A stretch of 64,000 nt of DNA from an uncultured Succinivibrionaceae bacterium (GTDB taxonomy: Bacteria; Pseudomonadota; Gammaproteobacteria; Enterobacterales; Succinivibrionaceae): the NCBI GenBank assembly GCA_944390105.1, contig CALXOV010000055.1, forward strand, positions 2,930 through 66,929, written 5' to 3'. The notes beneath the pieces were generated by a model, which worked only from the letters and a program-made list of their open reading frames with translations, ran no database searches and was not told the origin of the DNA. A program made the translations under genes and the position numbers. This document shows positions 47,692 to 64,000 of this stretch, one piece after another (the stretch's first letter is position 1; every line of letters begins with the position of its first letter).

Positions 47692-48163
47692 CAATGCCCA
47701 GTACACCTGAGCGCACGGTCTCAAGCACATCTGAACACTTACTGAAGGTAGCAATGAAGTTATCTACTTCATCTGACGAGCCTACATATTCGACAGTATA
47801 AAGCTCGGGGGTTACATCAATGATCTGCGCATGGAAAATATCGCACAGTGAACGGATCTCCTCGCGCAGCTGCCGATTAGGCGTCGGCATCTTCATCAAG
47901 ACCAGCTCGCGCTCCAAGCCGATATTAGTCTCGTCATAATCGCTGACGCGCAGCACATCAACTAGCTTATGCAGCTGTTTGGTGATTTGCTCGGCCTCAT
48001 CGGGGTCACCTAAAGTAAGAATGGTACAACGCGACAGTGTCGGATCTTCGGTTGGAGCTACAGTCAGACTTTCGATATTGTAGCCACGCTGGGAGAACAA
48101 ACCCACTACGCGCGACAGAGCACCAGCTTCGTTTTCAATTAAGATGGATACCACATGTCTCAT
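47663..48163 (-). CDS. ilvH: acetolactate synthase small (regulatory) subunit
   Basis: 166 aa. ACT-domain N-terminus MRHVVSILIENEAGALSRVVGLFSQRGYNIESL. Confidence 0.9.
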   Translation of the reverse strand: MRHVVSILIENEAGALSRVVGLFSQRGYNIESLTVAPTEDPTLSRCTILTLGDPDEAEQITKQLHKLVDVLRVSDYDETNIGLERELVLMKMPTPNRQLREEIRSLCDIFHAQIIDVTPELYTVEYVGSSDEVDNFIATFSKCSDVLETVRSGVLGIAKGNHYMHS

Positions 48164-48166
48164 CGC

Positions 48167-50223: not shown

Positions 50224-53076
50224 CTACTCGCCATCATCCCCATTCAACTCACTATCAGATTTAGATTTTTTATCGCTATCTTCGCCAGCCAATTCACGAA
50301 TTGCTTCAAGTCCTTTAATAGACCCTTCACCCTCAAAATATTCTTTTAATCTATCCCTAACTGCAACTAAATTATTATGATAGCTTACGAGGTTTGATTC
50401 CATACATCTCATAGGATCGGTGTATTTGACGGCTTCATCCATAATATTCATACATTCATTATAATACAGAATACCCTCATGACTAATATTATCACCTTTT
50501 ACATAAAGAAAGTCAGGCTCCTGAGCACGATATTTAAGCGCTTCTAGAATTAAATAAGCCGCATTGTAGAATGATTTTTTAAAATTTTTTGTTTTATATT
50601 CATTTTTCATTAAATTAATGCCACACTTAATCATCAATAGTGCTATTTTTCTGTCAATAATATGCTTGCTACTAGGATAGTTATCCAGCATTTTTCCCAA
50701 TGCCAACGCATGGGTTCCCTTAAATAAAATCATATTTTTACAAAAAGTTTTATAAAATAAATCAAATAACCTTTTCAGCGCATCATCAGAAGAAAAAACA
50801 CTAGCCGCATAATTCCAAATTAAAGTTTTTTTGGGATCCTGTTCTAGGATATCCAAAATAATTTTCTTAAACTTTTCAGTTAAATTTCCACGCAAATAAG
50901 CAGCACATCTAGGTATAGCCTGATTTACAACATAACGTTTTGTATCGTAATCTAAGCGATCTATGATATCTAAAAATTTTTCTAATATTGCTATATACTC
51001 ATTAATGAATGTATCATATTCATTTTTATATTCTTCAACATTGATGGAACCATATTGGTCAAGTAAGAAACAATATTTTTCACTATTATCAATATTTTTA
51101 ACCTTATCATATGCATTAAAAAATTTAGAATTTGGTAATTTATTTAAGATCTTTCTAGTTAAAACTAACCCCTTAACTCTACGAGGTTGATAAAGACAAA
51201 CTTCTACCTCATTTAGTAAAGTTTTATATTTTTTAATAAAATCTTTCATTGTTAAAATAGCAGACCAACATTTTCTAAATTTAACATAGTCTTTGTCATA
51301 ACTTCCGATTGTAAATGGCTCACATTTTAAATCTGGAGGATAAGATAACCCTCTCCTAAATCTATCCATAATCTCTTGAAGAGTAATATTACTCATGGAG
51401 TTAAAATCGAAACATTGACCTTCTTTTAGTCTACGATCAATTTTGGAAGAAATATCAGCAGCAGCAAATTTAATAATTGCATAGCCCGAAGCCGCAGACA
51501 TCTGCACTGTAGTAACTAGCTTTACCTTGGTTTTACTTATAGTATTGAAAGGCACATAACCAGCTCTTAACTGATTTGTAGTACTGCCTTTATTAAATTT
51601 TCCTTTGGCAATAAATACCTCAAAGTTGGATACATTTTCCGGCAGATAGAAAGTTATGTCGGTAATTTCGGATGAATAGATCTTACCTGCTGGATATCCA
51701 TTCTTTAAAATACTCGGCTTTAGCAGAGATATCGGTTTTGGTTCATTTTGCCCTTTTTCGATTGCAAAAATCGACAGCTCATCTAATTTATCATTATATG
51801 ATGGTAATCCCCTGGCCACGCGCTGGGCAAATAATGCCGTTCCATCAGCAATATCATCTTTATTGGTATACCACACTCCTCTATGTGCATAATTATCCCC
51901 GAGATAGTTCATAAAAAGGCCATTAGCCAGTTCTCTCGCAATAAATTCACTGCTAAGAGGTCCAGTTACAATTAATGAAGCTAACTTTTCATTGCTGATA
52001 TTGTGCATAACAAAAGCAACAACAGCATCTAACCACGCTTTTTTATCATAAATACTGACATCTGTATTTGTTATATTATACTTTTGATTTTTTAAATCGA
52101 TTAATAAACTATTAATATCTACTTTATTATCTTCAACTATGTTATTATTTAAGTTGTTAAAATGCAAATTTTCCACTTTAACCCAGCGTTTATTCAAATA
52201 GAAAATATAATTCTTTTCTTCTGTTGGTAATTTCAATAAACTTGGCCAAATCTGATCACATAAATTTAAAATTTGACTTTTCTCAGTGGCATTATACTTA
52301 TAATTAGGAAGACTTTTATTAAGTCTATCAATAAATAATTCAAACAAGCTCATCCCATCAAAAGGAAATCTTTCGCGTTCCTCATCAGGAAAATCTCTAA
52401 TTGGCACATAGAATGTTTTATTATTTTCAAGAGTAGGAGATACGGCAAAACTTGAAAATTCAACGCAATCTAGACCTAAATATAAAACTCCAAGCTCTTT
52501 ATTGCTTCCTTCAGTAAATTGCTGAGCATAATAATCCTGATGGGCTGGACGCCGCAACCAATCCATTGCCGCGGCCACTGTTCGCCAAACTAATCTAACG
52601 TCTTTAAGACCAAGTATTCTCTTCAGATCCTGCAACAGATGCTCTCTTGCATTCATATTGATGAAATTAGGCACGGCTACAGCTACGTGTGAATCACTTC
52701 CTAATCTTGTTGGGAACAGCGCTTTAATATGCTCTGCCATCAACTGTGAGCAGTTTATTCCATCCCACTTGTGAACTATATCTATATCTTCCATCAGCTT
52801 TTCCCAGATTAAGCTGATAAGCGCACGTTTGCCGCTAAAGGAATCCAAAGTTTTGAGCGGGTAAGAAGGTGGGAATGGAAAACCTAAGCCGGTTCGATCT
52901 CTCTTAGCACTGAAGCCAGTAGTGGGCAAGGTATAAGCATCATCGCTTAAGATCACGCAGGATGGCTGAAAATCATTACTGCGGTCCAAGGTAAATTCAG
53001 GTACATTATCTTCAATTGTGCTGAAAGAATCCCGCAAGCCGAAAGCTGCCACACCTATATACTTAGAATTACCCAT
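50224..53076 (-). CDS. divergent Hsp70-like protein (actin-fold NBD plus beta-sandwich) with a C-terminal alpha-helical extension of about 400 aa
   Basis: VAVAVPNFINMNAREHLLQDLKRILGLKDVRLVWRTVAAAMDWL (aa 131-174) parallels Hsp70 AVITVPAYFNDxQRQATKDAGxIAGLxVLRIINEPTAAALAYG. LIVTGPLSS resembles LVGGSTRIP, and DDIADGTALFAQRVARG resembles NPDEAVAxGAAxQA. Residues aa 430-545 read like an SBD-beta domain. The start overlaps the upstream gene's stop by 8 nt. Confidence 0.6.
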   Translation of the reverse strand: MGNSKYIGVAAFGLRDSFSTIEDNVPEFTLDRSNDFQPSCVILSDDAYTLPTTGFSAKRDRTGLGFPFPPSYPLKTLDSFSGKRALISLIWEKLMEDIDIVHKWDGINCSQLMAEHIKALFPTRLGSDSHVAVAVPNFINMNAREHLLQDLKRILGLKDVRLVWRTVAAAMDWLRRPAHQDYYAQQFTEGSNKELGVLYLGLDCVEFSSFAVSPTLENNKTFYVPIRDFPDEERERFPFDGMSLFELFIDRLNKSLPNYKYNATEKSQILNLCDQIWPSLLKLPTEEKNYIFYLNKRWVKVENLHFNNLNNNIVEDNKVDINSLLIDLKNQKYNITNTDVSIYDKKAWLDAVVAFVMHNISNEKLASLIVTGPLSSEFIARELANGLFMNYLGDNYAHRGVWYTNKDDIADGTALFAQRVARGLPSYNDKLDELSIFAIEKGQNEPKPISLLKPSILKNGYPAGKIYSSEITDITFYLPENVSNFEVFIAKGKFNKGSTTNQLRAGYVPFNTISKTKVKLVTTVQMSAASGYAIIKFAAADISSKIDRRLKEGQCFDFNSMSNITLQEIMDRFRRGLSYPPDLKCEPFTIGSYDKDYVKFRKCWSAILTMKDFIKKYKTLLNEVEVCLYQPRRVKGLVLTRKILNKLPNSKFFNAYDKVKNIDNSEKYCFLLDQYGSINVEEYKNEYDTFINEYIAILEKFLDIIDRLDYDTKRYVVNQAIPRCAAYLRGNLTEKFKKIILDILEQDPKKTLIWNYAASVFSSDDALKRLFDLFYKTFCKNMILFKGTHALALGKMLDNYPSSKHIIDRKIALLMIKCGINLMKNEYKTKNFKKSFYNAAYLILEALKYRAQEPDFLYVKGDNISHEGILYYNECMNIMDEAVKYTDPMRCMESNLVSYHNNLVAVRDRLKEYFEGEGSIKGLEAIRELAGEDSDKKSKSDSELNGDDGE

Positions 53077-54736
53077 TCTGCACCACCCGATTTAGTAAGC
53101 TTGTTACAGCCATCTGCACTTGTTCAGATACATTTCTCCATTGGCCTATCTGCATGGGTACGTGACACAGCAATGCATGTTCTTTTTCCTCATTAAACGC
53201 AGATGGGGTAACTTTTAGTTCATAATTAAAAGTTAAACTTAATAAATGCCATTCCTGCAACTCCAAAAGCTCATAATCATTAATACATGACTCTGAGCTT
53301 TTGAGGATTTGTGACGCAACCTCAGCATTGTCCTCATGCGTGCTTAATGCATTATTCAATGAATACAACAATATTAAATAAGGCTTATCATCCTCATTCA
53401 ACGGTGTACACAGAATACATGACTTTGTTCCTAATATAGATGCGGTTTGCGCAGCCGTATTGTAAAGATCATCTTGCCGCGACGTTATAGGGATGCTGTT
53501 GACATCCGAAATAAAATCAATGACATATTCTCGTCCAGAGCTACCGCATAAATAAAATGAACCTGGCGGCAATGAATGATCTAGTAATACCCCCTGTCTA
53601 TTTTCCTTTCTTATCTTTAAATTAGACGTTGCAATCAGTTCCAAGGTGAAATTAGGATTTGATGAATTTTCATTTGGTAATACATACAGAGCGGATGCCA
53701 TCAGCAGACATGATAGATCGGAGGAAGTTATATACAGCCAATGCAACAGATTATCGACCCTTCTATTATGTCTCAGCAAGTCCTGATAATACTGCCATAC
53801 TTTTCTATACCTTAAATCATTCTGTAGCACATAATTAGGAACTATAGCCGCAGCAGGCCGGCGCACATATGTAAATTCAGCTCTATGCAAGCCATCAATA
53901 CATTGTTGCTCAAAGTGTTTGACTAAATCTTCATTAGAAGATTTATGGTTTTCTTTGAGAAAATTAGTGCAGGCTAAGATACATCTGCGCAAAAAATCTT
54001 TTAATACTTGATTTTCAAGCAGATCATAATTTTCAGTTCGCACTACCGCCAAAATCTTACTATCGTTAGCTGCAGCTTTCTGGAAAATACTCTTGCCTGG
54101 CTGCTTGACCAACCAGCGCAGGCTGTTCACATTAACTTCATTGACTTTATCTAATTTCTGTAATCTATCTTCACGTTTTAAAGTCTTTCTTATACCGCTC
54201 AGCACTAATGGTAGAAATTTTGTAAATTCATTACTAATCGTGACTATAAGGGGCTTATAGATCTCTTCATCTTCTTGAACCATTTTCACTATTATTTCCG
54301 GCAAATCATCATAGCGGAACAGTTCATGCTCAAATTTAACATTAACATTATTCGGATCTGATTTGTACGCAAGATAATCAAAAAATCCTATCCAGCTTTT
54401 TAGACATTCTTTAAGTTCTTCACTAAAATTTTGATCTCCCAAGTAGTGAAAATTCTTAAACCTTATCTTAGCCCATTCAATGCATAGATTATTTTCAATG
54501 CTACTATTATGCTCTGAATAAGGCATTGCCACCAACATATACCAGCGGTGATTTTTATAATATTTCCTTCCTATGCAGGAATATTCTGTAAGTAAGTTAA
54601 GTTGATTTAAATCATCTTGAGGAACTTCAAGTAATACACTTCCTAAGAAAGAGTAATCTTGCACAGCACCATTAATTGACCTGCTAGATTTAAATTCCCA
54701 TTCCCAAGGATAAGTTTTTACTATTATTTCATGCAT
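53069..54736 (-). CDS. McrC/DUF2357-like partner protein of the McrB-like NTPase
   Basis: Sits immediately downstream (3-nt gap) of the McrB-like gene. RTENYDLLENQVLKDFLRRC (aa 233-252) resembles the (S/T)xDxxENRxxKxFL motif of DUF2357/McrC-like proteins. I could not find a D...(D/E)xK motif by eye. Confidence 0.5.
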   Translation of the reverse strand: MHEIIVKTYPWEWEFKSSRSINGAVQDYSFLGSVLLEVPQDDLNQLNLLTEYSCIGRKYYKNHRWYMLVAMPYSEHNSSIENNLCIEWAKIRFKNFHYLGDQNFSEELKECLKSWIGFFDYLAYKSDPNNVNVKFEHELFRYDDLPEIIVKMVQEDEEIYKPLIVTISNEFTKFLPLVLSGIRKTLKREDRLQKLDKVNEVNVNSLRWLVKQPGKSIFQKAAANDSKILAVVRTENYDLLENQVLKDFLRRCILACTNFLKENHKSSNEDLVKHFEQQCIDGLHRAEFTYVRRPAAAIVPNYVLQNDLRYRKVWQYYQDLLRHNRRVDNLLHWLYITSSDLSCLLMASALYVLPNENSSNPNFTLELIATSNLKIRKENRQGVLLDHSLPPGSFYLCGSSGREYVIDFISDVNSIPITSRQDDLYNTAAQTASILGTKSCILCTPLNEDDKPYLILLYSLNNALSTHEDNAEVASQILKSSESCINDYELLELQEWHLLSLTFNYELKVTPSAFNEEKEHALLCHVPMQIGQWRNVSEQVQMAVTSLLNRVVQNG

Positions 54737-54739
54737 ATA

Positions 54740-56968
54740 TTACTCGTCAGCTCTATATAAGCCTACCCAATTGAAAATTCCTGTTTCCTGAGAGCTTATA
54801 TCAATTGACTGACTGATGGATTCAGCTAACTTAGCGTCACTAAGCTTAGTCGCTACAAACTCTTTTAAGGCATTGAGCTCATTGCGTTTGCTGTTAACAT
54901 CGACACCTCTCAATTTAGGCAGGATCTTATGTTCAATTTGATCTGACATGGCATATTTCAAACTGGTTTGAATGTTCACTCCATCGTGGGGATAATTCAT
55001 AATATAATCCCGTATGGAATTATCCACACGCAAACCAAAAGGCCGGCCTAAATCTTTCATGAGTTTGGATAATTCAACTATCCAATTATTGACATTGACC
55101 TTATCTTGGTTATTATCAAAGGATTTTTTAATCCATTTGCACCATGTTTCATAATTGATAAAATATTTATTTTCATTATCTGAAGCAATTTGAGTCTCAT
55201 TGTCCACTTTATTGGGTCTACCGAATCTAATAACATCTGAGCGATCCAGCACTTTATCTGCTAAGGTCTGCGTTGTCTCATCTTCATTCATAGTACCAAC
55301 AAAAAGAATATTTTTCGGTACCCAGAGCTTAAGATCATTCTGCACATTTAATGATATTTCAGCTTGAGATATTTCCTCATCAGTAATATTCTTTACATTT
55401 CGCCTAAATTCTAATTTAGATAAAAACTCCGAGAAATAATATTCAGTTCGTGCCAAATTCATTTCATCTAATAAAACTAATAGCATTGGTGAATTATCGC
55501 TCAAGTCTTTAATAACATCATTGTTATCAAAGTATCGTATGTTTTTATTATTTAACTTGTTTTTTCTCCTAAATACATAATCATAGGCATTTAAGCTCTT
55601 AGCTAAATCGGTTGCTTGATATTTTCCAGTTAAGTAATTATAGAACCCTAATAAATCCTGTGGAGAATCCCAACGCGGCTGAACTGAAATAATTAGATTA
55701 TTCATGCCGAAGTATTTTGCATACTGGGTAGGCAGCAACGACTTACCAGTACCTGACAGTCCAGCTAAAACTGTCAAAGGACTTATATCTTGAATCTTCA
55801 GACTGGTATGAAAAGATTTGATCAGTCTTTGGCTGAAAATTAATTTATTGTTTTTTAAATAATCGTAAAAATTATCTAAAGCTTGTAATTCATTTTCCGG
55901 CTTACGATTATTTGTTTTTTGCGTGAAAGATAAACATGAAGGAATGCGATATAAGTCAGCGAAAGCATCAGTTTCCTTGTTAAGCTTAAGCTTATCATTC
56001 TCATCGTGCAGCCGCTGATTTTCTTTCTTAAGTTGATTTTGATCAAAACATCCTTGAATATATTTCTGAATAAGATATGCCGTATCCCGGATGTTGTTGC
56101 TAAGCTGTTCGTTGAGCACATGCATAACTGCTTTATGCTGCGCATCAAGATCCTTTTTCAGACTGCTATCTAAGACCTCTGCTTGATTAAGTAGCGCCTT
56201 CCCTAAGGCTTGACCGTGAGATTTAAAGACGTTATCAAAAGATTGGGCTAATGCATTACCTTGGTTTTTAAAGACTTCATCAAAAGATTGGGCCAATGAT
56301 CTGCCCTGATCCGTCATCGCCTGTTTAAAACCGTCTGCCAGCGAATTTTCATCAAAGCTGAAATTATCCTTGTTAAACGCTTCAGTTAAGATACTCTGCA
56401 AGTTTGAGGCAATTTCTTTATCCACATGCAACAAGCTTTGCTCTGCGCGCAAATCCTCAATTTTCTGTTCTAGTTCAGCTAACTCTGCCTGCTGCTGCTT
56501 TATCAGCGCGCGCTTTTCCTCATATTCATTCAGCTCCCGCTTAATGCGTTCATATTCAGCGCTTTTATCCTTTAATTCGCTTAATTCGCGCTCTTTAGTT
56601 TCAATCTTTAATTTTAGGTCCGTCAAACGTTCTGTATATTGCCTTTCAAGCTGTTCTAAGTTATTTCTTAATTGATCAAGATCTTTGTCTTGCTGCACAG
56701 CTTCAGCATAATTCTGTTTAAGGCGAATTAGCTCTTCATGAATTTGATCCTTTTTAGTCTGCATTACTTGGACTTGGTTGCGCAGATCCGTTAGCTTTTT
56801 GGCATTAAGATCCATAGCATCTGCAAATTTCTTTGAATGCAAAAAGATACTAGGAATTTTGTTATAGTTTGAAATAGTCACCATCGCATAGATTAATACA
56901 ATGATGGCAACAATAAGCCCGACCAATGGCAAGTACAGCCAAAAATTTCCCGCAAAGCTTAAATCCAT
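54740..56968 (-). CDS. membrane-anchored coiled-coil protein fused to a McrB-like AAA+ (AAA_5) NTPase
   Basis: TM helix FWLYLPLVGLIVAIIVLIYAMVTI (aa 9-32), then heptad-rich E/K/Q/L sequence at about aa 55-335. Walker A GLSGTGKS (aa 403-410, nt 55739-55762) and Walker B LLVLLDEMNLARTEYYFSEFLSKLE. FVGTMNEDETTQTLADKVLDRSDVIRF corresponds to the McrB MNTADRS...RRF region. Confidence 0.75.
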   Translation of the reverse strand: MDLSFAGNFWLYLPLVGLIVAIIVLIYAMVTISNYNKIPSIFLHSKKFADAMDLNAKKLTDLRNQVQVMQTKKDQIHEELIRLKQNYAEAVQQDKDLDQLRNNLEQLERQYTERLTDLKLKIETKERELSELKDKSAEYERIKRELNEYEEKRALIKQQQAELAELEQKIEDLRAEQSLLHVDKEIASNLQSILTEAFNKDNFSFDENSLADGFKQAMTDQGRSLAQSFDEVFKNQGNALAQSFDNVFKSHGQALGKALLNQAEVLDSSLKKDLDAQHKAVMHVLNEQLSNNIRDTAYLIQKYIQGCFDQNQLKKENQRLHDENDKLKLNKETDAFADLYRIPSCLSFTQKTNNRKPENELQALDNFYDYLKNNKLIFSQRLIKSFHTSLKIQDISPLTVLAGLSGTGKSLLPTQYAKYFGMNNLIISVQPRWDSPQDLLGFYNYLTGKYQATDLAKSLNAYDYVFRRKNKLNNKNIRYFDNNDVIKDLSDNSPMLLVLLDEMNLARTEYYFSEFLSKLEFRRNVKNITDEEISQAEISLNVQNDLKLWVPKNILFVGTMNEDETTQTLADKVLDRSDVIRFGRPNKVDNETQIASDNENKYFINYETWCKWIKKSFDNNQDKVNVNNWIVELSKLMKDLGRPFGLRVDNSIRDYIMNYPHDGVNIQTSLKYAMSDQIEHKILPKLRGVDVNSKRNELNALKEFVATKLSDAKLAESISQSIDISSQETGIFNWVGLYRADE
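56222..56311 (-). repeat. imperfect 45-nt tandem duplication inside the coiled-coil region (15-aa units LAQSFDEVFKNQGNA / LAQSFDNVFKSHGQA)
   Basis: Units at 56222-56266 and 56267-56311 both begin TTTAAAGAC..ATCAAAAGATTGGG on the plus strand. Confidence 0.8.
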
Positions 56969-57035
56969 CTTTAATCCCTTTTATATCAAAGTTAACTCTA
57001 AATTCTGCCGATAAATTTATTAGTAAACTGAAGAA

Positions 57036-58574
57036 CTAGTCTTCAGCCTCCAGTTGGTCTAATGTCTTCACATACTGCTGAGCAGTACTCTTAAAATGAT
57101 CTAATTGCGTAGCATCAAGTCCTGCATTGGTACTCAGATTTGCAATATCATCTTCACTCATTGCATCGAACTGCTTTATGGTTGCGTCTAATGCTTGCGT
57201 ATTAGCACGCAGCTGCTCAGCTGTATTGATGCTTATCTGAAGCGCTACGGCTGCAGACACCTTCTGCTGTGACTCAGCTAGACTTGCGATAATTGCATTC
57301 AGCTGCGTATTTTGCTGATTAAAAGCATCAGTAGCTCGTTGCAGTTGCTGTGTATATGGATCTAAGTTAGTTTTATTGTTTATCTCAGTAACTGCACTTT
57401 GATAATTTGCTGCAGTTTTTACAACTTGTTCACGTAAGATGACAAGTTCATCCAGCATAGAGCTTAGAGTTACCTGTTTCTCTTGACTATTGCTTGGCGC
57501 ATTGTGCCTATCGTTAGTTCCTACCAACTGGTTCAAGTTAGTAATCGCCGTGCTGATATTTTCTGCAGATGAAGCCAGCTTGCTATTAGTTCCAGTAAAA
57601 TCCACTTGCTGCAGTTGTTCATTTTTAGCTTGCAGAGCCTTAATCTCTGCTGTTAAGCTGTCATGTAACTGTGTGTATGATCTGTATTCACTGCTGTAAT
57701 TATTCAACACAGTATCTAATGTATTCTTTTGTCCTGCAATATCATTCACTTTTTTATTAAATTGCTCTGAAGCAACGCGGATATTCTTAGCATAATGCGC
57801 AATAGAGTTCGGTTCATTCTCATCTAGCTGATCATTTAACTTATCATTTACGGTCATGTAGTCATTGATAATGCCACTGATTCTAGTCTGCATATCAGAT
57901 AACGATTTTGTCAGCACATTTATCGAACTGTCCTCTTGTTTAAGTGCTGCAAACCGCTTTTCCAGGGAAGTTAACTCTATTTCAGTTGCTTCTTTTTTAC
58001 TCAACAATCCATTTACTTCATCGGTTAAACTTGATGCTGTCCGTTTAAGCGTAGTTTGCTCATTTCTTAAGGACGTTATTTCTTTATTCAACGTCTGCTT
58101 ATCAGCCTGTAGGGAAGCTAGCTCATTTGTTAATTTAACCTTACTGGCATTAAGCTCTCCGACTTCTGCCTTCAAGTCTTCATAACGAGCCAATACAGCT
58201 ACAGCTTCATCGTAAGCTTGTTTTTTAGCGTCATACTCTGCGGCGATTGACTTAAGCTCAGCACGATTCTTTTCCAGCCCAAAAGAAATTTCATTAAATT
58301 CTTGGCGCATCCCGGGCAGTTCGGAAATGTAGTGCTGATAGTCGGCCAGATCCTGCTCTAGCTGCTGCTTTTCTTCGATGAAAGTATTGCGCTGCCATAA
58401 CTCGATGGCAAAGCAACAGATACAGAAAATCGTCACCGCCGAAATACCGCAAATTAAGCCGATAAAACGGGATTTGGGCATTTTTTTATCAATAGATAAA
58501 TCATAAAATGCATCGTTATCTTCCATGTGCGATAAATCAGCAGAGTCAGACTGTGCATTAAAATCCGATTTCAT
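57036..58574 (-). CDS. membrane-anchored long coiled-coil protein (512 aa) with no enzymatic motif
   Basis: TM helix FIGLICGISAVTIFCICCFAIELW (aa 37-60). The rest is Q/L/N/E/A/T-rich heptad-like sequence. The start overlaps the helicase stop by 17 nt and is preceded by GAGGGA. Confidence 0.6.
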   Translation of the reverse strand: MKSDFNAQSDSADLSHMEDNDAFYDLSIDKKMPKSRFIGLICGISAVTIFCICCFAIELWQRNTFIEEKQQLEQDLADYQHYISELPGMRQEFNEISFGLEKNRAELKSIAAEYDAKKQAYDEAVAVLARYEDLKAEVGELNASKVKLTNELASLQADKQTLNKEITSLRNEQTTLKRTASSLTDEVNGLLSKKEATEIELTSLEKRFAALKQEDSSINVLTKSLSDMQTRISGIINDYMTVNDKLNDQLDENEPNSIAHYAKNIRVASEQFNKKVNDIAGQKNTLDTVLNNYSSEYRSYTQLHDSLTAEIKALQAKNEQLQQVDFTGTNSKLASSAENISTAITNLNQLVGTNDRHNAPSNSQEKQVTLSSMLDELVILREQVVKTAANYQSAVTEINNKTNLDPYTQQLQRATDAFNQQNTQLNAIIASLAESQQKVSAAVALQISINTAEQLRANTQALDATIKQFDAMSEDDIANLSTNAGLDATQLDHFKSTAQQYVKTLDQLEAED

Positions 58575-61500
58575 CGTGGTCCCTCATCATTTGCTGCCAT
58601 TTATCTAAAACCTGCTGAGCACATTGCGCAGGTTCGGCATAAACCTTTCTTCCCCAAAAACGTAATACTTCATAGTGCAGCGCGCCCATCTGCAGATCAC
58701 GCAGGTAATCATCAGCCTTCCGCTGTCCCATGGCATCTACATGACAGTTGCCGTCCACTTCAACATCCAAAAAGAGTTTACGTTCTTCATCAATAAAGGC
58801 AAAATCCAAGCGGCGATTAATCGCGGGCAGCGGATATTGAACCTTAGGTTTTGGCAGTGGCAATTTTTTAAGATGCCACAGCATCAAACGTTCAAGCGGA
58901 GATTCGGTAAGAGCCATGTCATCATCATCATCAAGACTGCCCTCGGCCCCACCGACAGCCGGCAAAGTGCGGATAAATTCAGCATCAGACATTAGTGCAG
59001 CCTCAGTATTGCCAACGACGCACACCAGTGAACGTGCTCGAGAAACTGCAACATTCAGAATATTTTTATTGCCGCTGATAAAGGCGTTTCCGAAACGCGA
59101 GGTCAAGCACAAACTCAGGATCACAATATCCCATTCAGAGCCCTGTGCTTGATGCACTGACTGAATAGTTAAATCCCCAAGTCCTTGCTGGACAGACTCG
59201 TCTCCGGCAGTCTGCAAATGAACTGCCAATAGGCTGTCAGCTGCAACTGCTTGTCTAATCCTGTCCACTTGAAGTTTATACGGAGACAAGATTCCTACAG
59301 TGCCCCCAAAGTCTGCATCTGCATAAATTGTGTGCAGCAGTTCAAGCACTGCCTTAATCTCAGCTGCATTGCTACGTGAGGAATTAGTACTGCTTTTTTC
59401 GGTCTGATCTGCTGTCTCATACCACTTTATGCCGTATTCCATATGCTTCGGCAACGGCAGATCAGCTTCGCTGCAGCGTGAAATGAGCATCCCGTCATAA
59501 CACAAGTCTGAAATATACTGCGTAATGCGGTTGCAGGAGCGATATGACTGGATTAATGACAATTTTTCCGCTCCCGGCGTCAAATAAGCAAAAGCGTAGA
59601 GTGATTTAATATCCTGCCCTAATTCAGGAAATGCATTGCACAGCCACAGTCTACTTTCAACCGCGTTCATCTCTAAGCCGTTGTTGCGCATGATTGAATC
59701 CTGCTTAGATACGCTGACGGCATTAACGATCGGCCCTAATTGATTTGGGTCACCGATAACAGCCGCCGCTTTAGCGCGATACAGCAAAGGAATGGCAGCC
59801 ACAAAATCAAACTGCGAGCTTTCATCAAAAATAACCAAATCAAACATGCCGGCTATTAAGGGAAATAAGCTGCGGGCAGAAGCTGTTGTGCATAGCCATA
59901 TCGGCTTATGCTGCAGAATTTGTTTAACCTTGTGGCTAAGGTGAGTGCAAAAGTCAGCGTCAGTCAGTAATTTGTCATTAAAATCATCTTTTTGCTTAGC
60001 ATCGCTATAAGCGTATTGCTTTAATTCGTTCAGATAATTTTGCCAATCCTTGGCATTATCGCATACATGCTCTGATGACCACACACAGTAGCGGATGGCT
60101 CGTTCATAGGCATCATGTAGCTTTTTTTGTTGCACTGCAAAATCTGCTTCTAGCTGCTCAATATCAGCATCGGCAGATAAAGTTCTGAGCTGCTCGGCAC
60201 AGAGGTTTTTGCGCAAGCTAAGAAGCAGATAATCATTTATTATCTTAAAGTTGCTGCTGTGCTTAACTAAGGCGTCAGTCAAAACTGATCCACCACTTAT
60301 CCGTAAGCGCAGCTTGGTCATAAAGGCGGTGATGCGATTTTTAAGGTTGAAAAAACTGCGTTCATCCTGACATCTACAGTACTGCGCAAAATATTGCATG
60401 CATTGTTGCAGATGATCGCTGCTAAACTTAGTAAGTTGTGGCTCAAGCTGTGTAAACACTGTTGCCAAATGCTTAAAACTGTTTTTCATCGTGTCACGGC
60501 AGCTGTCGTAATGCGCTATCTCAGTTTTAAGATTTTCTACGACATCTTTACGCTTTAAATGCTCCTGCAACTGTGTACGGAGCTGATTAAACTTGGCGAT
60601 GTCATTAAATGAAGCGTCTGTTGTCTCTGTCCTTTTACTTAACCCCATGGCCACAGAGTACAACGTGGCATCAGTGCCTTCTTTGCTGTTGGCCCGTATC
60701 GTTAGGTCTGTGGCATGCTCAATTTTCTGCAGCCTTTCAATCAGTGCATTAATAGCCTGATGGTTATATGAGGTAATTAACACGCTCTTACCCTGGGCAG
60801 CGGCATTTAAAGCCGCTGCCGCAATGACCTGCGTCTTACCGGTACCTGGTGGCCCCTGTAGCACGGTGATCCTATTGTCTAAGATCGATGCCACCGCAAG
60901 TTGCTGCTCAAAATTAAACGGCAGCTTATCTCTATCCGTACAAACAAGTTCAGGGTAGATACCCACAGCTGGTGCTGAATTATAGAGAAAAAGCGGCAAA
61001 ACCGAGTTTTTTAACTGCTGGCTTTGTGCGCGACTTATATTCTTTAAATCATGCTGAATGGATTTTAAAAAGGGATTTTCCCTAAATTCACCTAGCAGTG
61101 CGACGTTATAAATTCCATCATGGCGCAGACTGTTGAGTGAACTTAAGTTATAAATATTCAGTGGTTGCTGCGGCTGAAAATAGGTCTCGACCAACACCTT
61201 AAAGCATGACCAGCTATCAGCTTTAAGGAAATTGCTCATTGGATCAGCCTCTTCTGAAATAAGGCTGTCTACGCATACTTTGTATCTGCGCTTAAACTCC
61301 TCTGCAGCATGATCTTTATTGGCAAATTTAAGCTTAAACCAACTTTCATTGATTTTCGGAATTAAGTCTTCTTCAAAACTATTAAGTTTAATGCTGTTAG
61401 ACAGTATTGAAGCGTCGTATATGCGTACGTAAAAAATCGGGACAATCCGCTCATCAACAACATCTACCGGATACCCGAGGGTCATTGTTTTCCTGCCAAA

Positions 61501-62082
61501 ATCAAATTGTTGGCAATCACTGCCTGCCATAACGCTATCACTTACCGAAGTAAGTTGCATTGAACTGCCATAGGTATGCTTATTCCACCGCGGCAGTTCG
61601 TCGATGTTGATGAAGGTTAGACCCTGATCTGATTTTTTATATTCCTGAGTTACCGATCCTTCACAGTTTTTTAAATCAATATAAGCGTTGATCAGTTGTT
61701 TAAATGAACTTTCATCAAGCTTCTGTTCAAACAGCTCATCCTCACTTAAAAACTGCTTTAAGAAATCCTTATCATTTACATTGGCCGAGATTAACTCCCG
61801 CCATGAGTAATGGCGCCGCGGCGAAGTGACGACATAAAAACAACCGGAAGGAGTTATTGTACGGAGTTTGTCCTGTCGAATTAAAAGATAAAATGCGGTA
61901 TGCGCCTGAATATAACTTAAATGAGCTTGAGTGCGTAAAATAGCAATGATGCTGGACTTATCCATCACCTGAGAGCGCGTCTGCATTACTTTCCATGCGC
62001 GCTGATAAATTTGAGAACTCGATAATGGAACTATATCATATTCATTATCACTGTCCTCGGAATAGGATAACGCATCTAGCAT
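58558..62082 (-). CDS. SF1 (Upf1/DNA2-like) helicase fused to a C-terminal Vsr/DUF559-like endonuclease domain, with an N-terminal region of about 390 aa of unknown function
   Basis: Motif I GPPGTGKT (aa 410-417, nt 60832-60855), motif II FDLVIFDESSQ (DESSQ at nt 59812-59826), QSYRS, VHQAQGSEWDIV and NVAVSRARS. C-terminal SPLERLMLWHL...RLDFAFIDEERKLFLDVEVDGNCH...DDYLRDLQMGALHYEVLRFW (aa 1060-1160, nt 58603-58905) matches the DUF559/Vsr-fold pattern. Confidence 0.8.
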   Translation of the reverse strand: MLDALSYSEDSDNEYDIVPLSSSQIYQRAWKVMQTRSQVMDKSSIIAILRTQAHLSYIQAHTAFYLLIRQDKLRTITPSGCFYVVTSPRRHYSWRELISANVNDKDFLKQFLSEDELFEQKLDESSFKQLINAYIDLKNCEGSVTQEYKKSDQGLTFINIDELPRWNKHTYGSSMQLTSVSDSVMAGSDCQQFDFGRKTMTLGYPVDVVDERIVPIFYVRIYDASILSNSIKLNSFEEDLIPKINESWFKLKFANKDHAAEEFKRRYKVCVDSLISEEADPMSNFLKADSWSCFKVLVETYFQPQQPLNIYNLSSLNSLRHDGIYNVALLGEFRENPFLKSIQHDLKNISRAQSQQLKNSVLPLFLYNSAPAVGIYPELVCTDRDKLPFNFEQQLAVASILDNRITVLQGPPGTGKTQVIAAAALNAAAQGKSVLITSYNHQAINALIERLQKIEHATDLTIRANSKEGTDATLYSVAMGLSKRTETTDASFNDIAKFNQLRTQLQEHLKRKDVVENLKTEIAHYDSCRDTMKNSFKHLATVFTQLEPQLTKFSSDHLQQCMQYFAQYCRCQDERSFFNLKNRITAFMTKLRLRISGGSVLTDALVKHSSNFKIINDYLLLSLRKNLCAEQLRTLSADADIEQLEADFAVQQKKLHDAYERAIRYCVWSSEHVCDNAKDWQNYLNELKQYAYSDAKQKDDFNDKLLTDADFCTHLSHKVKQILQHKPIWLCTTASARSLFPLIAGMFDLVIFDESSQFDFVAAIPLLYRAKAAAVIGDPNQLGPIVNAVSVSKQDSIMRNNGLEMNAVESRLWLCNAFPELGQDIKSLYAFAYLTPGAEKLSLIQSYRSCNRITQYISDLCYDGMLISRCSEADLPLPKHMEYGIKWYETADQTEKSSTNSSRSNAAEIKAVLELLHTIYADADFGGTVGILSPYKLQVDRIRQAVAADSLLAVHLQTAGDESVQQGLGDLTIQSVHQAQGSEWDIVILSLCLTSRFGNAFISGNKNILNVAVSRARSLVCVVGNTEAALMSDAEFIRTLPAVGGAEGSLDDDDDMALTESPLERLMLWHLKKLPLPKPKVQYPLPAINRRLDFAFIDEERKLFLDVEVDGNCHVDAMGQRKADDYLRDLQMGALHYEVLRFWGRKVYAEPAQCAQQVLDKWQQMMRDHDEIGF

Positions 62083-62331: not shown

Positions 62332-63360
62332 CTAATTGTTGACTGCTTTCACCTGCGCCAAAGCATCCACTCTATCTTCATAATACGGGCACAGCACCGC
62401 ATGCGCTACCTGCAGGCGCTCTAAAAGTTCCTGTGCACTGTGTTGCTGCCGGTATGCCGCCTCTAACGGATAAAGCGGCAGCACCTGAAAGATATTCACT
62501 CGAAAACCATCTGGCAACTGATAACTCTGAGCCGCACGTGGATAGTCGCCTAAGGCCGTAAGCATCAGCGCACTGGCGCGCACCGCCGGCACCAAGGGCG
62601 CACCGTTATCAACGGTATAGCCAAAACCGACGAAATGATCACTAAGGCGTATCTGCGCAGTTAAATCCAAAAGAAACTTAAACGGGTAATAGTAAGCAAG
62701 CTCACTTCTATCCACGGGCCAAGCCTTAGGCAAAGCAAGAGCCAGCTCAAGACAGGAATTTTCCTTAGCATCAGCACCGGGCGGCACCGCTTGGCGCAAT
62801 GCAGACAGCCCCTTGGTTACTACTAAGTAATAATCGTGACCATCCTGCGGGGCAAAAACGATAAGCTCAACCTTATCGCCTTTAAGCGTGGCATGCACCT
62901 TACCAAAATGCTGCGACGCATGCGCATCAAAGGCGGCACTTTCTGCCGCATTAAGCGATCGCACCGCCGCAGCTTTATAGATAAGTTGCAGCTGTGCTTC
63001 AATACGCGCGAAAAGCTCGGGCTGAGTAAGCGGAACAAAACGCCGCGCCCGCTCAAGGCGCAACAGCGCATCCTGCAGCAGATTTTCTTTAATTAAAGTC
63101 AGTGCCTTAAGATACAGATACTGCGCGTCATTGCCTCCCTCATCTTCAAAAGTATTGAGAATATCTTCGGCGCGGCGCAGGCAGAAATCGTCTTGCTTTT
63201 GATTATGCAAATTTAAATACGCGCGCACTAAATACAGTGCTAAAGTCAAATCAATACTATCTTGTGCCTCAAGCATATCTACCGCCTGTTGATAAGCACT
63301 TTTTACTAAAAGTTCATCAAGCTTGGTGCACAGCGCGGTTTTTTCATCATTGGTTAACAT
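62332..63360 (-). CDS. SUFU-like (suppressor-of-fused domain) protein with an N-terminal helical/TPR-like region
   Basis: The C-terminal half (YYLVVTKGLSAL...CLELALALPKAWP...YYYPFKFLLDL) resembles bacterial SUFU-domain (PF05076) proteins. Start chosen at ATG 63358-63360 (MLTNDEK...), preceded by AAGGGAAAG. The ORF-track start is 63417. Confidence 0.55.
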   Translation of the reverse strand: MLTNDEKTALCTKLDELLVKSAYQQAVDMLEAQDSIDLTLALYLVRAYLNLHNQKQDDFCLRRAEDILNTFEDEGGNDAQYLYLKALTLIKENLLQDALLRLERARRFVPLTQPELFARIEAQLQLIYKAAAVRSLNAAESAAFDAHASQHFGKVHATLKGDKVELIVFAPQDGHDYYLVVTKGLSALRQAVPPGADAKENSCLELALALPKAWPVDRSELAYYYPFKFLLDLTAQIRLSDHFVGFGYTVDNGAPLVPAVRASALMLTALGDYPRAAQSYQLPDGFRVNIFQVLPLYPLEAAYRQQHSAQELLERLQVAHAVLCPYYEDRVDALAQVKAVNN

Positions 63361-63497
63361 GAAATGCTTTCCCTTAATCTCAGGCTTCACTAAATACGGC
63401 AAAGCTCTAAGCGACATCTGCCATGACTACAGTTCAGGCAGCACGCTTAGAGCTCAGCTTCCCCGCACCAGTTTAGGTGCAGGCCTTTAGGCTAATG

Positions 63498-64000
63498 TTA
63501 CAGATGCAGTGCGTGCTCACCGCGGGCAATGCCGCACACTCCTGAGCGCACAGTTTCGATTACATCCGCCTGTTTAGCGATCACCTCTAAAAAGCGCATA
63601 ATCTCAGCTGACGTATTAACGTACTGCAACACGTACAACTCCGGAGTTACATCCACAATCTGCGCTTTAAAGATATCGCACAGACTCTTGAGCTCATCAC
63701 GCACCGCACGGCTCATTGCCTGTACTTTGACAAACAAGATCTCGCGCTCCACCGCCCCTTCGGGGTTTTCATCTAAAATCGACACCTTAATCACATTGAT
63801 AAGCTTGTGGATCTGCTTGGAGATATGTTCAATTTCCACCCCCTCAGATTCGGTCACAATTGTGATGCGCGAAATGGACGGATCTTCAGTAGGGCCTGCC
63901 GAAATGGTTTCGATATTATAGCCGCGCTGCGAGAACAAACCTACCACGCGGGAGAGCGCACCGTTCTGATTTTCAAGCAGAATTGAAATGATATGACGCA
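63498..64000 (-). CDS. ilvH: second acetolactate synthase small-subunit paralog (the first base of the start codon lies just beyond the window end)
   Basis: Reading the frame back to the window edge gives (M)RHIISILLENQNGALSRVVGLFSQRGYNIETIS.... The GTG start in the ORF track is internal. By eye, roughly half the residues are identical to the ilvH at 47663-48163. Confidence 0.85.
   Translation of the reverse strand, partial: RHIISILLENQNGALSRVVGLFSQRGYNIETISAGPTEDPSISRITIVTESEGVEIEHISKQIHKLINVIKVSILDENPEGAVEREILFVKVQAMSRAVRDELKSLCDIFKAQIVDVTPELYVLQYVNTSAEIMRFLEVIAKQADVIETVRSGVCGIARGEHALHL

What the first reader, a model, noticed from the sequence alone, without database searches (positions are those of the whole stretch)
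54740..58574. Two consecutive proteins that each combine an N-terminal TM helix with a several-hundred-residue coiled coil, tethering a McrB-like NTPase to the membrane
The 512-aa protein has a TM helix at aa 37-60 and the 742-aa protein has one at aa 9-32. Both continue into long heptad-rich segments of similar length (about 300-450 aa). In the 742-aa protein the coiled coil replaces the N-terminal DNA-binding domain found in classical McrB. A membrane-anchored restriction-type NTPase is unusual. It suggests surveillance at the inner membrane, for example at the phage genome entry site, or a membrane-directed effector or abortive response. The two coiled coils might pair as a heteromeric stalk.
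Basis: partly seen in the sequence, partly recalled or inferred. Interest (0 to 1): 0.65.

Follow-up and report, generated by a model that had tools for sequence, protein, structure and literature searches.

The report
Membrane-anchored Type III-B CoCoNuT defence operon
The two membrane-anchored coiled-coil proteins are real and belong to a five-gene McrBC-type "CoCoNuT" (Type III-B) predicted anti-phage operon; its family is already described, but the membrane anchors, conserved across phyla, are not mentioned in that paper's main text.

Summary
p512 (57036-58574, -) and p742 (54740-56968, -) each have one strongly hydrophobic N-terminal helix followed by a coiled coil, and p742 ends in a McrB-type AAA+ domain.

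They are genes 2 and 3 of a tight five-gene operon in a low-GC island:
- an SF1 helicase fused to a Vsr-like nuclease
- a coiled-coil-only protein
- a coiled-coil McrB with an NxD signature motif
- a DUF2357 McrC homologue
- a ~950-aa protein with weak Hsp70-like similarity

This gene order and domain content match the published Type III-B CoCoNuT (Bell et al. 2024, eLife).

The same operon occurs in Desulfobacterota, Planctomycetota, Verrucomicrobiota, Alpha- and Gammaproteobacteria. In 65 of 65 non-redundant loci with both genes intact, both proteins keep the anchor. About 90% of 140 full-length family representatives have it.

CnuB has a textbook N-out/C-in charge signature, so its coiled coil and GTPase are cytoplasmic. 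CnuA has a different, balanced signature, and its orientation is unresolved. The proposed heteromeric stalk is therefore not supported.

The eLife main text never mentions these anchors. Verdict: a new member of a known, experimentally untested kind, with a conserved feature not found in that text. Interest is moderate.

The parts
58558..62082 (-). CnuH: 1174-aa UPF1-like SF1 helicase (core aa 389-1029, nt 58996-60918) fused to a C-terminal Vsr/DUF559-like nuclease (aa 1087-1160, nt 58603-58824). No TM helix.
   Evidence: Pfam AAA_11 1.4e-21, AAA_12 5.5e-29, MTES_1575 and DUF559. PADLOC MkoA-like 2.9e-52. NCBIfam IGHMBP2-family helicase. Helicase motifs and D1093, E1108, D1110 and H1114 are 100% conserved in 41 homologues. 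Maximum KD19 is 1.51.
57036..58574 (-). CnuA: 512-aa protein with an N-tail (aa 1-36), one TM helix (aa 37-57, nt 58404-58466) and coiled coil only (aa 61-512, nt 57039-58394). Its start overlaps the end of cnuH by 17 nt.
   Evidence: KD19 2.55. Heptad z = 12.1. Only coiled-coil families hit in Pfam, PADLOC and NCBIfam, and the same is true for 69 positional homologues. The TM helix is present in all retained loci. SD sequence and N-tail conservation support the start.
54740..56968 (-). CnuB: 742-aa protein. TM helix aa 9-36 (nt 56861-56944). Heptad coiled coil aa 38-179 (nt 56432-56857). Helical linker without heptads aa 180-335 (nt 55964-56431). McrB-type AAA+ GTPase aa 360-742 (nt 54743-55891) with Walker A G403-K409, Walker B D501-E502 and NxD signature N561-E562-D563.
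   Evidence: KD19 2.79. AF2 pLDDT 74 with these helices. Invariant motifs in 30 homologues. PADLOC PDC-M26A 1e-36. Foldseek matches AAA+ folds including McrB 6ut3_F, TMt 0.53. N-out/C-in charge bias in 62 of 65 loci.
53069..54736 (-). CnuC: 555-aa McrC homologue with a DUF2357 domain (aa ~163-317), an extra ~160-aa N-terminal region, and a C-terminal region with no conserved nuclease motif. It starts 3 nt after the cnuB stop.
   Evidence: Pfam DUF2357 1e-09. Conserved columns cluster at aa 164-334; after that only E378, G382 and G392 plus a few hydrophobic positions are conserved, and no (D/E)xK. No PDB sequence match.
50224..53076 (-). CnuD candidate: 950-aa protein with an N-terminal Hsp70/actin-like ATPase-like region (weak support) and C-terminal helical repeats (aa ~680-930). 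It overlaps the end of cnuC by 8 nt.
   Evidence: No Pfam, PADLOC or NCBIfam family. hhalign of a 20-sequence profile against DnaK gives a collinear match of aa 1-253 to DnaK 1-240, E = 0.0017, probability 15%. The AF2 model is poor (pLDDT 48.6), with only the C-terminal helices reaching 70-90. A gene of this size and position is conserved in related loci.

Best explanation
The finding covers genes 2 and 3 (CnuA and CnuB) of a horizontally acquired five-gene Type III-B CoCoNuT operon, cnuH-cnuA-cnuB-cnuC-cnuD. This is a McrBC-derived predicted anti-phage or anti-mobile-element system.

Shown here:
- CnuB is a single-pass inner-membrane protein. A tiny acidic N-tail lies outside. A roughly 21-nm heptad helix, a helical linker and an NxD-type McrB GTPase domain lie in the cytoplasm.
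- CnuA is a second single-pass membrane protein made only of coiled coil.
- Both anchors are conserved across phyla.
- CnuH is the only protein in the operon with a conserved nuclease active site.

Inferred from knowledge of the McrBC family:
- CnuB forms a hexameric ring whose GTPase is stimulated by the DUF2357 domain of the nuclease-dead CnuC.
- The ring is therefore held at the membrane by up to six anchors.
- The soluble CnuH helicase-nuclease does the cutting. The Hsp70-like CnuD is a further soluble partner of unknown role.
- The coiled coils act as scaffold or signal conduit, functionally comparable to the cytoplasmic ZorA tail of Zorya.

The orientation of CnuA is not settled. I put about 55% on its coiled coil being cytoplasmic and about 45% on periplasmic. 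The trigger and the target (RNA or DNA) are unknown.
For: Operon and island:
- The five genes are tightly packed or overlapping, in an island of GC 0.32-0.45 against about 0.50 in the flanks.
- Domain content matches.
- The NxD motif and Walker motifs are invariant.

Match to the literature:
- Gene order and domains match the text of Bell et al. 2024 for Type III-B: Vsr-like nuclease fused to CnuH, a separate coiled-coil-only CnuA, coiled-coil CnuB, nuclease-dead CnuC, a separate CnuD, and no TerY-P genes.

Conservation:
- The same five-gene order occurs in L001, L004-L007 and in 29 of 88 scanned loci in full form. Most of the others are cut by contig ends.
- It also occurs on the alphaproteobacterial plasmid pRtrCIAT899b, again with TM helices in both A and B.
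- CnuB topology statistics have p of about 6e-12.
- Nuclease residues are conserved in CnuH but not in CnuC.

Defence context:
- Neighbours in related loci include SinI and EcoRII R-M systems plus JetD, Cas12a, and TerB plus BrxC/D.
- A scan of 111 flanking ORFs found type I R-M, GmrSD and BrxL genes.

Zorya precedent: a membrane complex with a ~70-nm coiled-coil tail that recruits nuclease effectors (PMC11946911).
Against: - No CoCoNuT of any type has been tested experimentally. The defence role rests on homology and genomic context.
Membership therefore rests on architecture, not on phylogenetic placement.
- The CnuD-Hsp70 link is weak.
- Many flanking genes in related loci are housekeeping genes, and I did no formal enrichment test.
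- No TM predictor trained on real data (DeepTMHMM, TMHMM) was available. Topology rests on hydropathy and the positive-inside rule.
- AF2 coordinates could not be inspected, so I cannot tell a hairpin from an extended coiled coil.
Confidence: 0.75

Rival explanations
1. Trans-envelope variant. CnuA inserts in the opposite orientation to CnuB (N-in/C-out), so its ~450-aa coiled coil lies in the periplasm, like TolA, FtsB or HlyD-type proteins. It would meet CnuB only within the membrane. It would act as an envelope sensor and relay a signal to the cytoplasmic GTPase and helicase-nuclease.
For: - The residue just before CnuA's helix is K or R in 53 of 65 loci, against 0 of 65 in CnuB.
- CnuA's N-tail has a median length of 29 aa and carries 4.6 K+R on average, which disfavours its export.
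- Net flank charge is +1.06 on the N side and -0.60 on the C side, in that direction in 46 of 65 loci, p = 5e-6.
- K+R is slightly higher on the N side within 5-8 residues of the helix (p about 0.02-0.04).
- CnuA's coiled coil is richer in S, T, Q, N and A and poorer in E, R and L than CnuB's linker in 64 of 65 loci. From general knowledge, that trend is typical of exported proteins.
- In the window itself, the flank before the helix is KKMPKSR and the flank after it is ELWQRN.
Against: - K+R counts tie at 10-15 residues (2.77 against 2.80) and favour the C side at 25 residues.
- K or R immediately follows the helix in 42 of 65 loci.
- Post-TM length varies about two-fold (311-674 aa), which fits poorly with a periplasmic ruler.
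- CnuA's TM helix resembles CnuB's slightly better in the same N-to-C direction (5.15 against 3.61 bits).
- All the other partners are cytoplasmic.
- The statistics are not corrected for phylogeny.
Confidence: 0.4
2. Both coiled coils are cytoplasmic and pair one-to-one into a heteromeric stalk that holds the GTPase at a fixed distance from the membrane.
For: - The genes are adjacent and both proteins are anchored.
- Bell et al. propose coiled-coil to coiled-coil contacts between Cnu proteins.
- There is weak same-direction similarity between the two TM helices.
- The two linker lengths show a weak positive correlation (r = 0.26, p = 0.04).
Against: - The length correlation is weak and not corrected for phylogeny.
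- Only about 140 aa of CnuB show heptads, against about 450 aa in CnuA.
- Composition differs systematically between the two.
- The two proteins have different flank-charge signatures.
- No multimer prediction could be run.
Confidence: 0.3
3. The locus is a CoCoPALM-type system (McrB fused to an FtsB-like TM+coiled-coil and linked to pilus assembly), or some other non-defence membrane machine, rather than a CoCoNuT.
For: Bell et al. describe a clade of NxD McrB homologues fused to an FtsB-like TM+coiled-coil module. CnuB here has a TM helix plus a coiled coil.
Against: - There is no signal-peptidase or pilus gene in or next to the operon, nor in relatives L001 and L004-L007.
- p742 gives no FtsB/DivIC Pfam hit at E<=0.1.
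- The operon instead carries the CnuH-Vsr, CnuA and CnuD genes that define Type III-B.
- It sits in a low-GC island, and some related loci have restriction or CRISPR genes as neighbours.
Confidence: 0.05
4. The hydrophobic segments are artefacts: mis-called starts, cleaved signal peptides or buried helices.
For: The only methods available were hydropathy and AF2. No dedicated TM predictor was available.
Against: - KD19 is 2.5-2.8 over 21-34 uncharged residues.
- The segments are conserved in position but not in sequence across phyla.
- The starts are supported by SD sequences and by N-tail conservation.
- CnuB's helix lies at the extreme N-terminus with an acidic residue before it and an R/K cluster after it. 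That is the reverse of a signal peptide.
- I saw no AxA or lipobox cleavage site after CnuA's helix when reading the sequence.
Confidence: 0.03

Closest known systems
Type III-B CoCoNuT (coiled-coil nuclease tandem), Bell, Sahakyan, Makarova, Wolf & Koonin, eLife 2024 (PMC11090510)
   Same: It has the same five genes in the same order:
- a UPF1-like SF1 helicase with a directly fused Vsr-like nuclease and no CnuE
- a separate coiled-coil-only CnuA
- a CnuB with only coiled coil upstream of an NxD McrB GTPase
- a DUF2357 CnuC without a nuclease motif
- a separate large CnuD
- no TerY-P genes

Alphaproteobacterial plasmid copies, which is the paper's main taxon for III-B, share the architecture and also the TM helices.
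   Different: - The paper's main text never mentions TM helices, anchoring or the periplasm for III-B. Here they are a conserved feature of both CnuA and CnuB.
- The distribution found here is much wider than 'primarily Alphaproteobacteria'.
- The Hsp70-like nature of CnuD could only be weakly reproduced here.
CoCoPALM systems (same paper): NxD McrB fused to an FtsB-like TM+coiled-coil module
   Same: A McrB-type NxD GTPase preceded by a TM helix and a coiled coil. This shows that membrane-anchored McrB homologues have already been noted.
   Different: CoCoPALM is defined by neighbouring signal-peptidase or pilus-assembly genes, which are absent here. This operon has the CnuH-Vsr, CnuA and CnuD genes instead, and p742 gives no FtsB/DivIC profile match.
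Classical McrBC Type IV restriction (E. coli K-12)
   Same: An AAA+ McrB-family GTPase with a DUF2357-containing McrC partner encoded immediately downstream. The hexamer-plus-McrC mechanism is likely retained.
   Different: - It has no N-terminal DNA-binding domain.
- The signature motif is NxD, not NxxD.
- The McrC homologue lacks a conserved PD-(D/E)xK motif.
- It is membrane-anchored.
- It has three extra genes.
Zorya type I (ZorAB-ZorC-ZorD), Hu et al., Nature 2024 (PMC11946911)
   Same: The analogy is functional only. Zorya combines inner-membrane anchored components, a very long cytoplasmic coiled coil, and soluble DNA-binding and nuclease effectors recruited at the membrane.
   Different: There is no homology: none of the five proteins matched a Zor model in PADLOC. 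Zorya is an ion-driven 5:2 motor with a peptidoglycan-binding domain, whereas this system is driven by a McrB-type GTPase.
PADLOC candidate system PDC-M26 (PDC-M26A model)
   Same: p742 matches the PDC-M26A profile at 1e-36. A related protein is therefore already listed as a phage-defence candidate.
   Different: None of the other four proteins matched any PDC-M26 component at E<=0.1. No paper mentioning PDC-M26 was found.

Membership tests
McrB-like GTPase, NxD clade | Walker A and Walker B motifs of the AAA+ McrB family | tested here: met
   G403-x-S-G-T-G-K409 and D501-E502 are invariant in 30 homologues.
McrB-like GTPase, NxD clade | Signature motif shortened from NxxD to NxD, usually followed by E or D | tested here: met
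   N561-E562-D563-E564 (MNEDE). N, E and D are invariant. The GTMNxD[ED] pattern is present in 135 of 140 representatives.
McrB-like GTPase, NxD clade | Adjacent McrC homologue with a DUF2357 domain | tested here: met
   p555, 3 nt downstream, hits Pfam DUF2357 at 1e-09. The pairing is conserved in related loci.
McrB-like GTPase, NxD clade | AAA+ fold like solved McrB structures | tested here: met
   Foldseek matches T. gammatolerans McrB 6ut3_F (TMt 0.53, rmsd 5.7 over 248 columns). Dynein, MoxR and BchI AAA+ domains score similarly.
Type III-B CoCoNuT | CnuB carries only coiled coil N-terminal to the GTPase, with no CSD or YTH domain | tested here: met
   Heptad z = 7.7 for aa 40-180. AF2 models the whole region as helix. 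No other Pfam domain is detected. The TM helix is additional to the published description.
Type III-B CoCoNuT | UPF1-like SF1 helicase CnuH with a directly fused Vsr-like PD-(D/E)xK nuclease and no separate CnuE | tested here: met
   AAA_11 and AAA_12 plus C-terminal MTES_1575 and DUF559. Acidic and His residues are invariant. The next gene is CnuA, not a wHTH-effector.
Type III-B CoCoNuT | Sul7s-like wHTH at the CnuH N-terminus and an OB fold | not tested
   No sequence-profile hit in aa 1-380.
Type III-B CoCoNuT | Separate CnuA with no recognisable domain other than coiled coil | tested here: met
   Only coiled-coil families hit for p512 and for 69 positional homologues. Heptad z = 12.1.
Type III-B CoCoNuT | CnuC with DUF2357 and an inactivated PD-(D/E)xK fold | tested here: inconclusive
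   DUF2357 is met. No conserved D...(D/E)xK motif is present in the C-terminal ~220 aa of 82 and 23 homologues, which is consistent with inactivation. The fold itself was not modelled.
Type III-B CoCoNuT | IG-like beta-sandwich at the CnuC N-terminus | not tested
Type III-B CoCoNuT | Separate CnuD with an Hsp70-like NBD/SBD plus HEAT-like repeats | tested here: inconclusive
   hhalign against DnaK is collinear over aa 1-253, E = 0.0017, probability 15%. A profile search against PDB sequences found nothing. The AF2 model has pLDDT 48.6, with confident C-terminal helical repeats only. Foldseek gave no significant hit.
Type III-B CoCoNuT | No TerY-P triad | tested here: met
   The island contains only the five genes. 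The flanking genes encode acetolactate synthase and a SUFU-domain protein.
Type III-B CoCoNuT | GTPase falls inside the published III-B clade | not testable with these tools
   The III-B sheet of the paper's Supplementary file 3 is truncated in the held copy. Indirect support: Rhizobium and Sinorhizobium plasmid copies with the same gene order are 37-38% identical in the GTPase.
CoCoPALM | Associated signal-peptidase-family or pilus-assembly genes | tested here: not met
   None in the operon or its flanks, nor in L001 and L004-L007.
CoCoPALM | FtsB-homologous TM+coiled-coil module fused to the GTPase | tested here: inconclusive
   A TM helix plus coiled coil is present, but p742 gives no DivIC/FtsB Pfam hit at E<=0.1. 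Remote homology was not tested.
Classical McrBC (E. coli type) | N-terminal modified-DNA-binding domain and an NxxD motif | tested here: not met
   The N-terminus is a TM helix plus coiled coil. The motif is NxD.
Zorya | ZorA/ZorB MotAB-like motor proteins | tested here: not met
   None of the five proteins hit a Zor model in PADLOC. The resemblance is functional only.

The most novel reading that the evidence does not exclude
CnuA and CnuB insert with opposite orientations. CnuB places its coiled coil and McrB GTPase in the cytoplasm. CnuA projects a ~450-aa coiled coil into the periplasm, and the two meet only through their TM helices. The Type III-B CoCoNuT would then be a trans-envelope device. 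A periplasmic coiled-coil probe would sense phage-induced envelope damage or DNA injection and switch on a membrane-bound McrBC-type motor and a helicase-nuclease inside the cell. This is quite different from the purely cytoplasmic, translation-surveillance picture proposed for CoCoNuTs.
Probability: 0.4. Interest if true: 0.7.

Novelty: new member of a known kind. Interest (0 to 1): 0.45.

Why it matters
CoCoNuTs are a large, purely computationally defined branch of McrBC systems. They have been proposed to survey RNA and translation in the cytoplasm, and none has been tested experimentally.

Two of the five Type III-B proteins are integral membrane proteins in every intact locus examined. 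A III-C-like CnuB on a Synechocystis plasmid also begins with a hydrophobic segment. This changes where such a system should be looked for in the cell and how it should be purified. It also gives simple, discriminating experiments: TM deletions, topology reporters and localisation during infection.

Together with Zorya and Shield, it adds to a theme of defence systems that combine a membrane anchor, a long coiled coil and a nuclease. The different charge signatures of CnuA and CnuB raise the testable possibility of a sensor that spans the envelope.

Tried and rejected
- Direct comparison with the paper's III-B sequences was impossible, because the held supplement is cut before the III-B sheet.
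- The homologue search for p512 returned only one relative, and the search for p950 returned only two. These proteins evolve too fast for the word-indexed search, so I collected positional homologues from 80 genome loci instead.
- Hsp70 test for p950. A profile search against PDB sequences gave only spurious antibody hits. AF2 with a 3-sequence alignment was poor, and its Foldseek search was uninformative. Only hhalign against DnaK gave a weak collinear match.
- A CnuC profile search against PDB sequences found no McrC.
- I looked for CnuA homologues with an extra domain that would reveal which side of the membrane they face, and found none.
- I looked for CnuA-CnuB fusions with two TM helices, which would have fixed the relative topology, and found none. 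The two very long CnuB ORFs (L076, L085) are coiled-coil expansions with a single TM helix.
- The promoter and terminator scan of the operon gave no more hits than shuffled sequence. Tandem-repeat and tRNA scans found nothing relevant.
- Literature searches for 'PDC-M26' and for membrane-anchored McrB found nothing beyond the CoCoNuT paper.
- I could not read AF2 coordinates, so the question of a hairpin or an extended coiled coil in CnuB stays open.

Full report
**1. What is at the coordinates**

They are the second and third genes of five tightly packed minus-strand genes:

| Protein | Coordinates |
|---|---|
| p1174 | 58558-62082 |
| p512 | 57036-58574 |
| p742 | 54740-56968 |
| p555 | 53069-54736 |
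| p950 | 50224-53076 |

The junctions are a 17-nt overlap, a 67-nt gap, a 3-nt gap and an 8-nt overlap. The block has GC 0.32-0.45, against about 0.50 in the flanks.

The surroundings are chromosomal housekeeping genes: tig-clpP-clpX-lon, a NAGidase gene, two acetolactate-synthase loci and a SUFU-domain gene. No tRNA gene is present. This looks like a horizontally acquired island.

**2.

- **Hydropathy.** The Kyte-Doolittle 19-residue maximum is 2.55 for p512 (aa 34-61) and 2.79 for p742 (aa 3-36). The other three proteins stay below 1.6.
- **Start codons.** Both have Shine-Dalgarno-like sequences upstream. The p512 N-tail aligns from Met1 with a 47%-identical relative.
- **AlphaFold2 model of p742** (30-sequence alignment, pLDDT 74). 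It gives a helix at aa 9-36 that continues, after a one-residue break, into a helix at 38-179. A low-confidence hinge follows at 180-230, overlapping further helices at 212-262 and 270-329. A confident AAA+ domain covers 360-742.
- **Heptad test against shuffles**:

| Segment | z |
|---|---|
| p512 aa 61-512 | 12.1 |
| p742 aa 40-180 | 7.7 |
| p742 aa 181-335 | 0.7 |
| GTPase domain (control) | 0.3 |

p512 is therefore coiled coil nearly throughout. p742 has about 140 aa of true heptads plus a helical linker without heptad regularity.

**3. What the operon is**

- **p1174** is a UPF1-like SF1 helicase (AAA_11, AAA_12) with a C-terminal DUF559/MTES_1575 (Vsr-like) nuclease. Its helicase motifs and D1093, E1108, D1110 and H1114 are 100% conserved in 41 homologues.
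- **p742** has invariant Walker A and B motifs and an invariant N561-E562-D563. This is the 'NxD' variant of the McrB signature. Its fold matches AAA+ domains, including McrB 6ut3. It also hits the PADLOC candidate PDC-M26A at 1e-36.
- **p555** carries DUF2357, the McrC N-terminal domain. It has no conserved (D/E)xK motif in its C-terminal part.
- **p950** has no family hit. A 20-sequence profile aligns collinearly with the DnaK nucleotide-binding domain, but only weakly (E = 0.0017, probability 15%). Its C-terminus is predicted as helical repeats.
- **p512** matches only generic coiled-coil models.

This composition and order matches the Type III-B CoCoNuT of Bell et al. 2024. That description is a Vsr-like nuclease fused directly to CnuH, a separate coiled-coil-only CnuA, a coiled-coil CnuB with NxD, a nuclease-dead CnuC, a separate Hsp70/HEAT CnuD, and no TerY-P genes.

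**4. Related loci**

Relatives of the CnuB homologue number more than 4,287 in the word-indexed search. In the exhaustive search there are 865 clusters at 50% identity with E<=1e-30.

The same five-gene order appears in:
- a 63%-identical relative, also between two acetolactate-synthase loci
- a contig where SinI and EcoRII R-M genes and JetD flank it
- Desulfovibrio subterraneus
- a locus next to Cas12a
- a locus next to TerB and BrxC/D

A scan of one genome per GTDB species found relatives in at least 549 species. I kept 80 loci, from Desulfobacterota, Planctomycetota, Verrucomicrobiota, Alpha-, Beta- and Gammaproteobacteria. In a scripted survey of 88 loci, 29 show the complete H-A-B-C-D order, and most of the rest are cut by contig ends.

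The alphaproteobacterial plasmid pRtrCIAT899b carries the same operon. Among 111 ORFs flanking these operons there are type I R-M, type II methylase, GmrSD, BrxC/D and BrxL genes. There are also many housekeeping genes, and I did no formal enrichment test.

**5. The membrane anchors are a family trait**

- 104 of the 120 closest CnuB homologues have the N-terminal helix; the rest are mostly truncated.
- 126 of 140 full-length 50%-cluster representatives have it. Most of the remaining 14 have a weaker hydrophobic start.
- Sixty-five non-redundant loci have a TM helix in both A and B plus a recognisable Walker A motif, and these were used for the statistics below.
- H, C and D have no TM helix in the five operons tested (L001, L004-L007).
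- The Rhizobium plasmid copy has the anchors too. A III-C-like CnuB on Synechocystis pSYSX also begins with a hydrophobic segment.
- CnuA is otherwise almost unalignable (12% mean column identity), so the conserved architecture is meaningful.

The eLife main text uses 'transmembrane' only for CoCoPALM, EssC, a 4-TM protein and ShdA. It never uses 'anchor', 'periplasm' or 'inner membrane'. As far as that text shows, the anchoring of III-B CnuA and CnuB is not described.

**6. Topology**

CnuB is unambiguous:
- Its N-tail has a median length of 3 aa.
- The residue before the helix is D or E, or there is none (65 of 65 loci).
- The residue after the helix is R or K in 62 of 65 loci.
- In 15-residue flanks, K+R averages 0.35 before the helix and 3.55 after it (p = 6e-12).

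By the positive-inside rule this is N-out/C-in, so the coiled coil and GTPase are cytoplasmic.

CnuA is different:
- Its N-tail has a median length of 29 aa and carries about 4.6 K+R.
- K or R immediately precedes the helix in 53 of 65 loci.
- K+R ties between the two flanks at 10-15 residues. It is slightly higher on the N side at 5-8 residues and higher on the C side at 25 residues.
- Net charge is +1.06 on the N side and -0.60 on the C side (46 of 65 loci).
- Its coiled coil is richer in S, T, Q, N and A and poorer in E, R and L than CnuB's linker in 64 of 65 loci.

Two points argue the other way. CnuA's TM helix scores slightly better against a CnuB TM profile in the forward direction than reversed (5.15 against 3.61 bits). 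Its post-TM length also varies two-fold.

I conclude that CnuA's orientation is unresolved, at roughly 55:45 in favour of a cytoplasmic coiled coil. The linker lengths correlate only weakly (r = 0.26).

**7. Most likely mechanism**

The architecture, the motifs, the anchoring and CnuB's topology are shown by the results above. The rest is inferred from knowledge of the McrBC family and from the CoCoNuT paper:
- CnuB forms a GTP-dependent hexamer, stimulated by the DUF2357 domain of the catalytically dead CnuC.
- The complex is held at the inner membrane by CnuB's helices, together with the membrane-anchored CnuA.
- The CnuH helicase-Vsr nuclease is the effector.
- CnuD is an Hsp70-like sensor or regulator.

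The layout is functionally reminiscent of Zorya, where a membrane complex with a ~70-nm cytoplasmic coiled coil recruits nuclease effectors on phage invasion (PMC11946911). There is no homology to Zorya. The trigger, and whether the target is RNA or DNA, remain unknown.

**8. Verdict**

The locus is a new member of a known, computationally defined and experimentally untested family. The conserved dual membrane anchor, with its contrasting charge signatures, is a useful feature not mentioned in the paper's main text. It makes simple experiments possible. I rate interest at 0.45.

The most novel reading not excluded is a trans-envelope arrangement with a periplasmic CnuA coiled coil (p about 0.4).

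Noticed in passing
L076:4911-9242 and L085:2298-9185: Two Phycisphaerae CnuB homologues have 1,000-1,900 aa of ~70-aa repeat coiled coil between the single N-terminal TM helix and the GTPase. If extended, that would be up to ~280 nm. L085 still has a TM+coiled-coil CnuA upstream. In L076 the upstream ORF looks sigma-factor-like.
   Followed up: partly
L089:6897-9056 (Synechocystis PCC 6803 plasmid pSYSX): A III-C-like CnuB, next to DUF2357 and phospholipase-D genes, also begins with a hydrophobic segment (KD19 2.39 at aa 4). Membrane anchoring may therefore extend to Type III-C CoCoNuTs.
   Followed up: partly
CnuA homologues in L005, L007, L011-L016, L024, L029, L035, L043, L045, L070, L071 and others: In an otherwise unalignable protein, one subclade keeps a juxtamembrane motif, [ST]xLD[KR] - TM helix ending in GW - K[IV][IV]NLExE[RK]. 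It occurs in Desulfobacterota, Planctomycetota and Methylobacillus. Twenty of 65 loci match the post-TM part. Its function is unknown.
   Followed up: partly
window 56189-56323 (p742 aa ~216-260): Three tandem 15-aa repeats of the form QG(R/N)(S/A)LAQSFD(E/N)VFK(N/S), the third degenerate (HGQALGKALLNQAEV), lie in the low-confidence hinge between the two helical arms of CnuB. Tandem Repeats Finder sees nothing at the DNA level.
   Followed up: partly
window 46387-47691 (+): A 434-aa ORF with an HNH_4 endonuclease domain lies next to a beta-N-acetylglucosaminidase gene, just outside the island. It could be another mobile-element or defence-related gene.
   Followed up: no
window 47663-49891, 62332-63417 and 63498-63947; L001: The island lies between two acetolactate-synthase loci (large plus small subunit on one side, a small subunit on the other) and a SUFU-domain gene. 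In the 63%-identical relative L001 the operon also lies between two acetolactate-synthase loci, but the SUFU gene is on the opposite side. This suggests a local rearrangement or independent insertion.
   Followed up: partly
window 50224-62082: GC content falls to 0.32-0.45 across the operon, against about 0.50 in the rest of the window. This is consistent with recent horizontal acquisition. No tRNA or integrase gene lies at the borders.
   Followed up: partly
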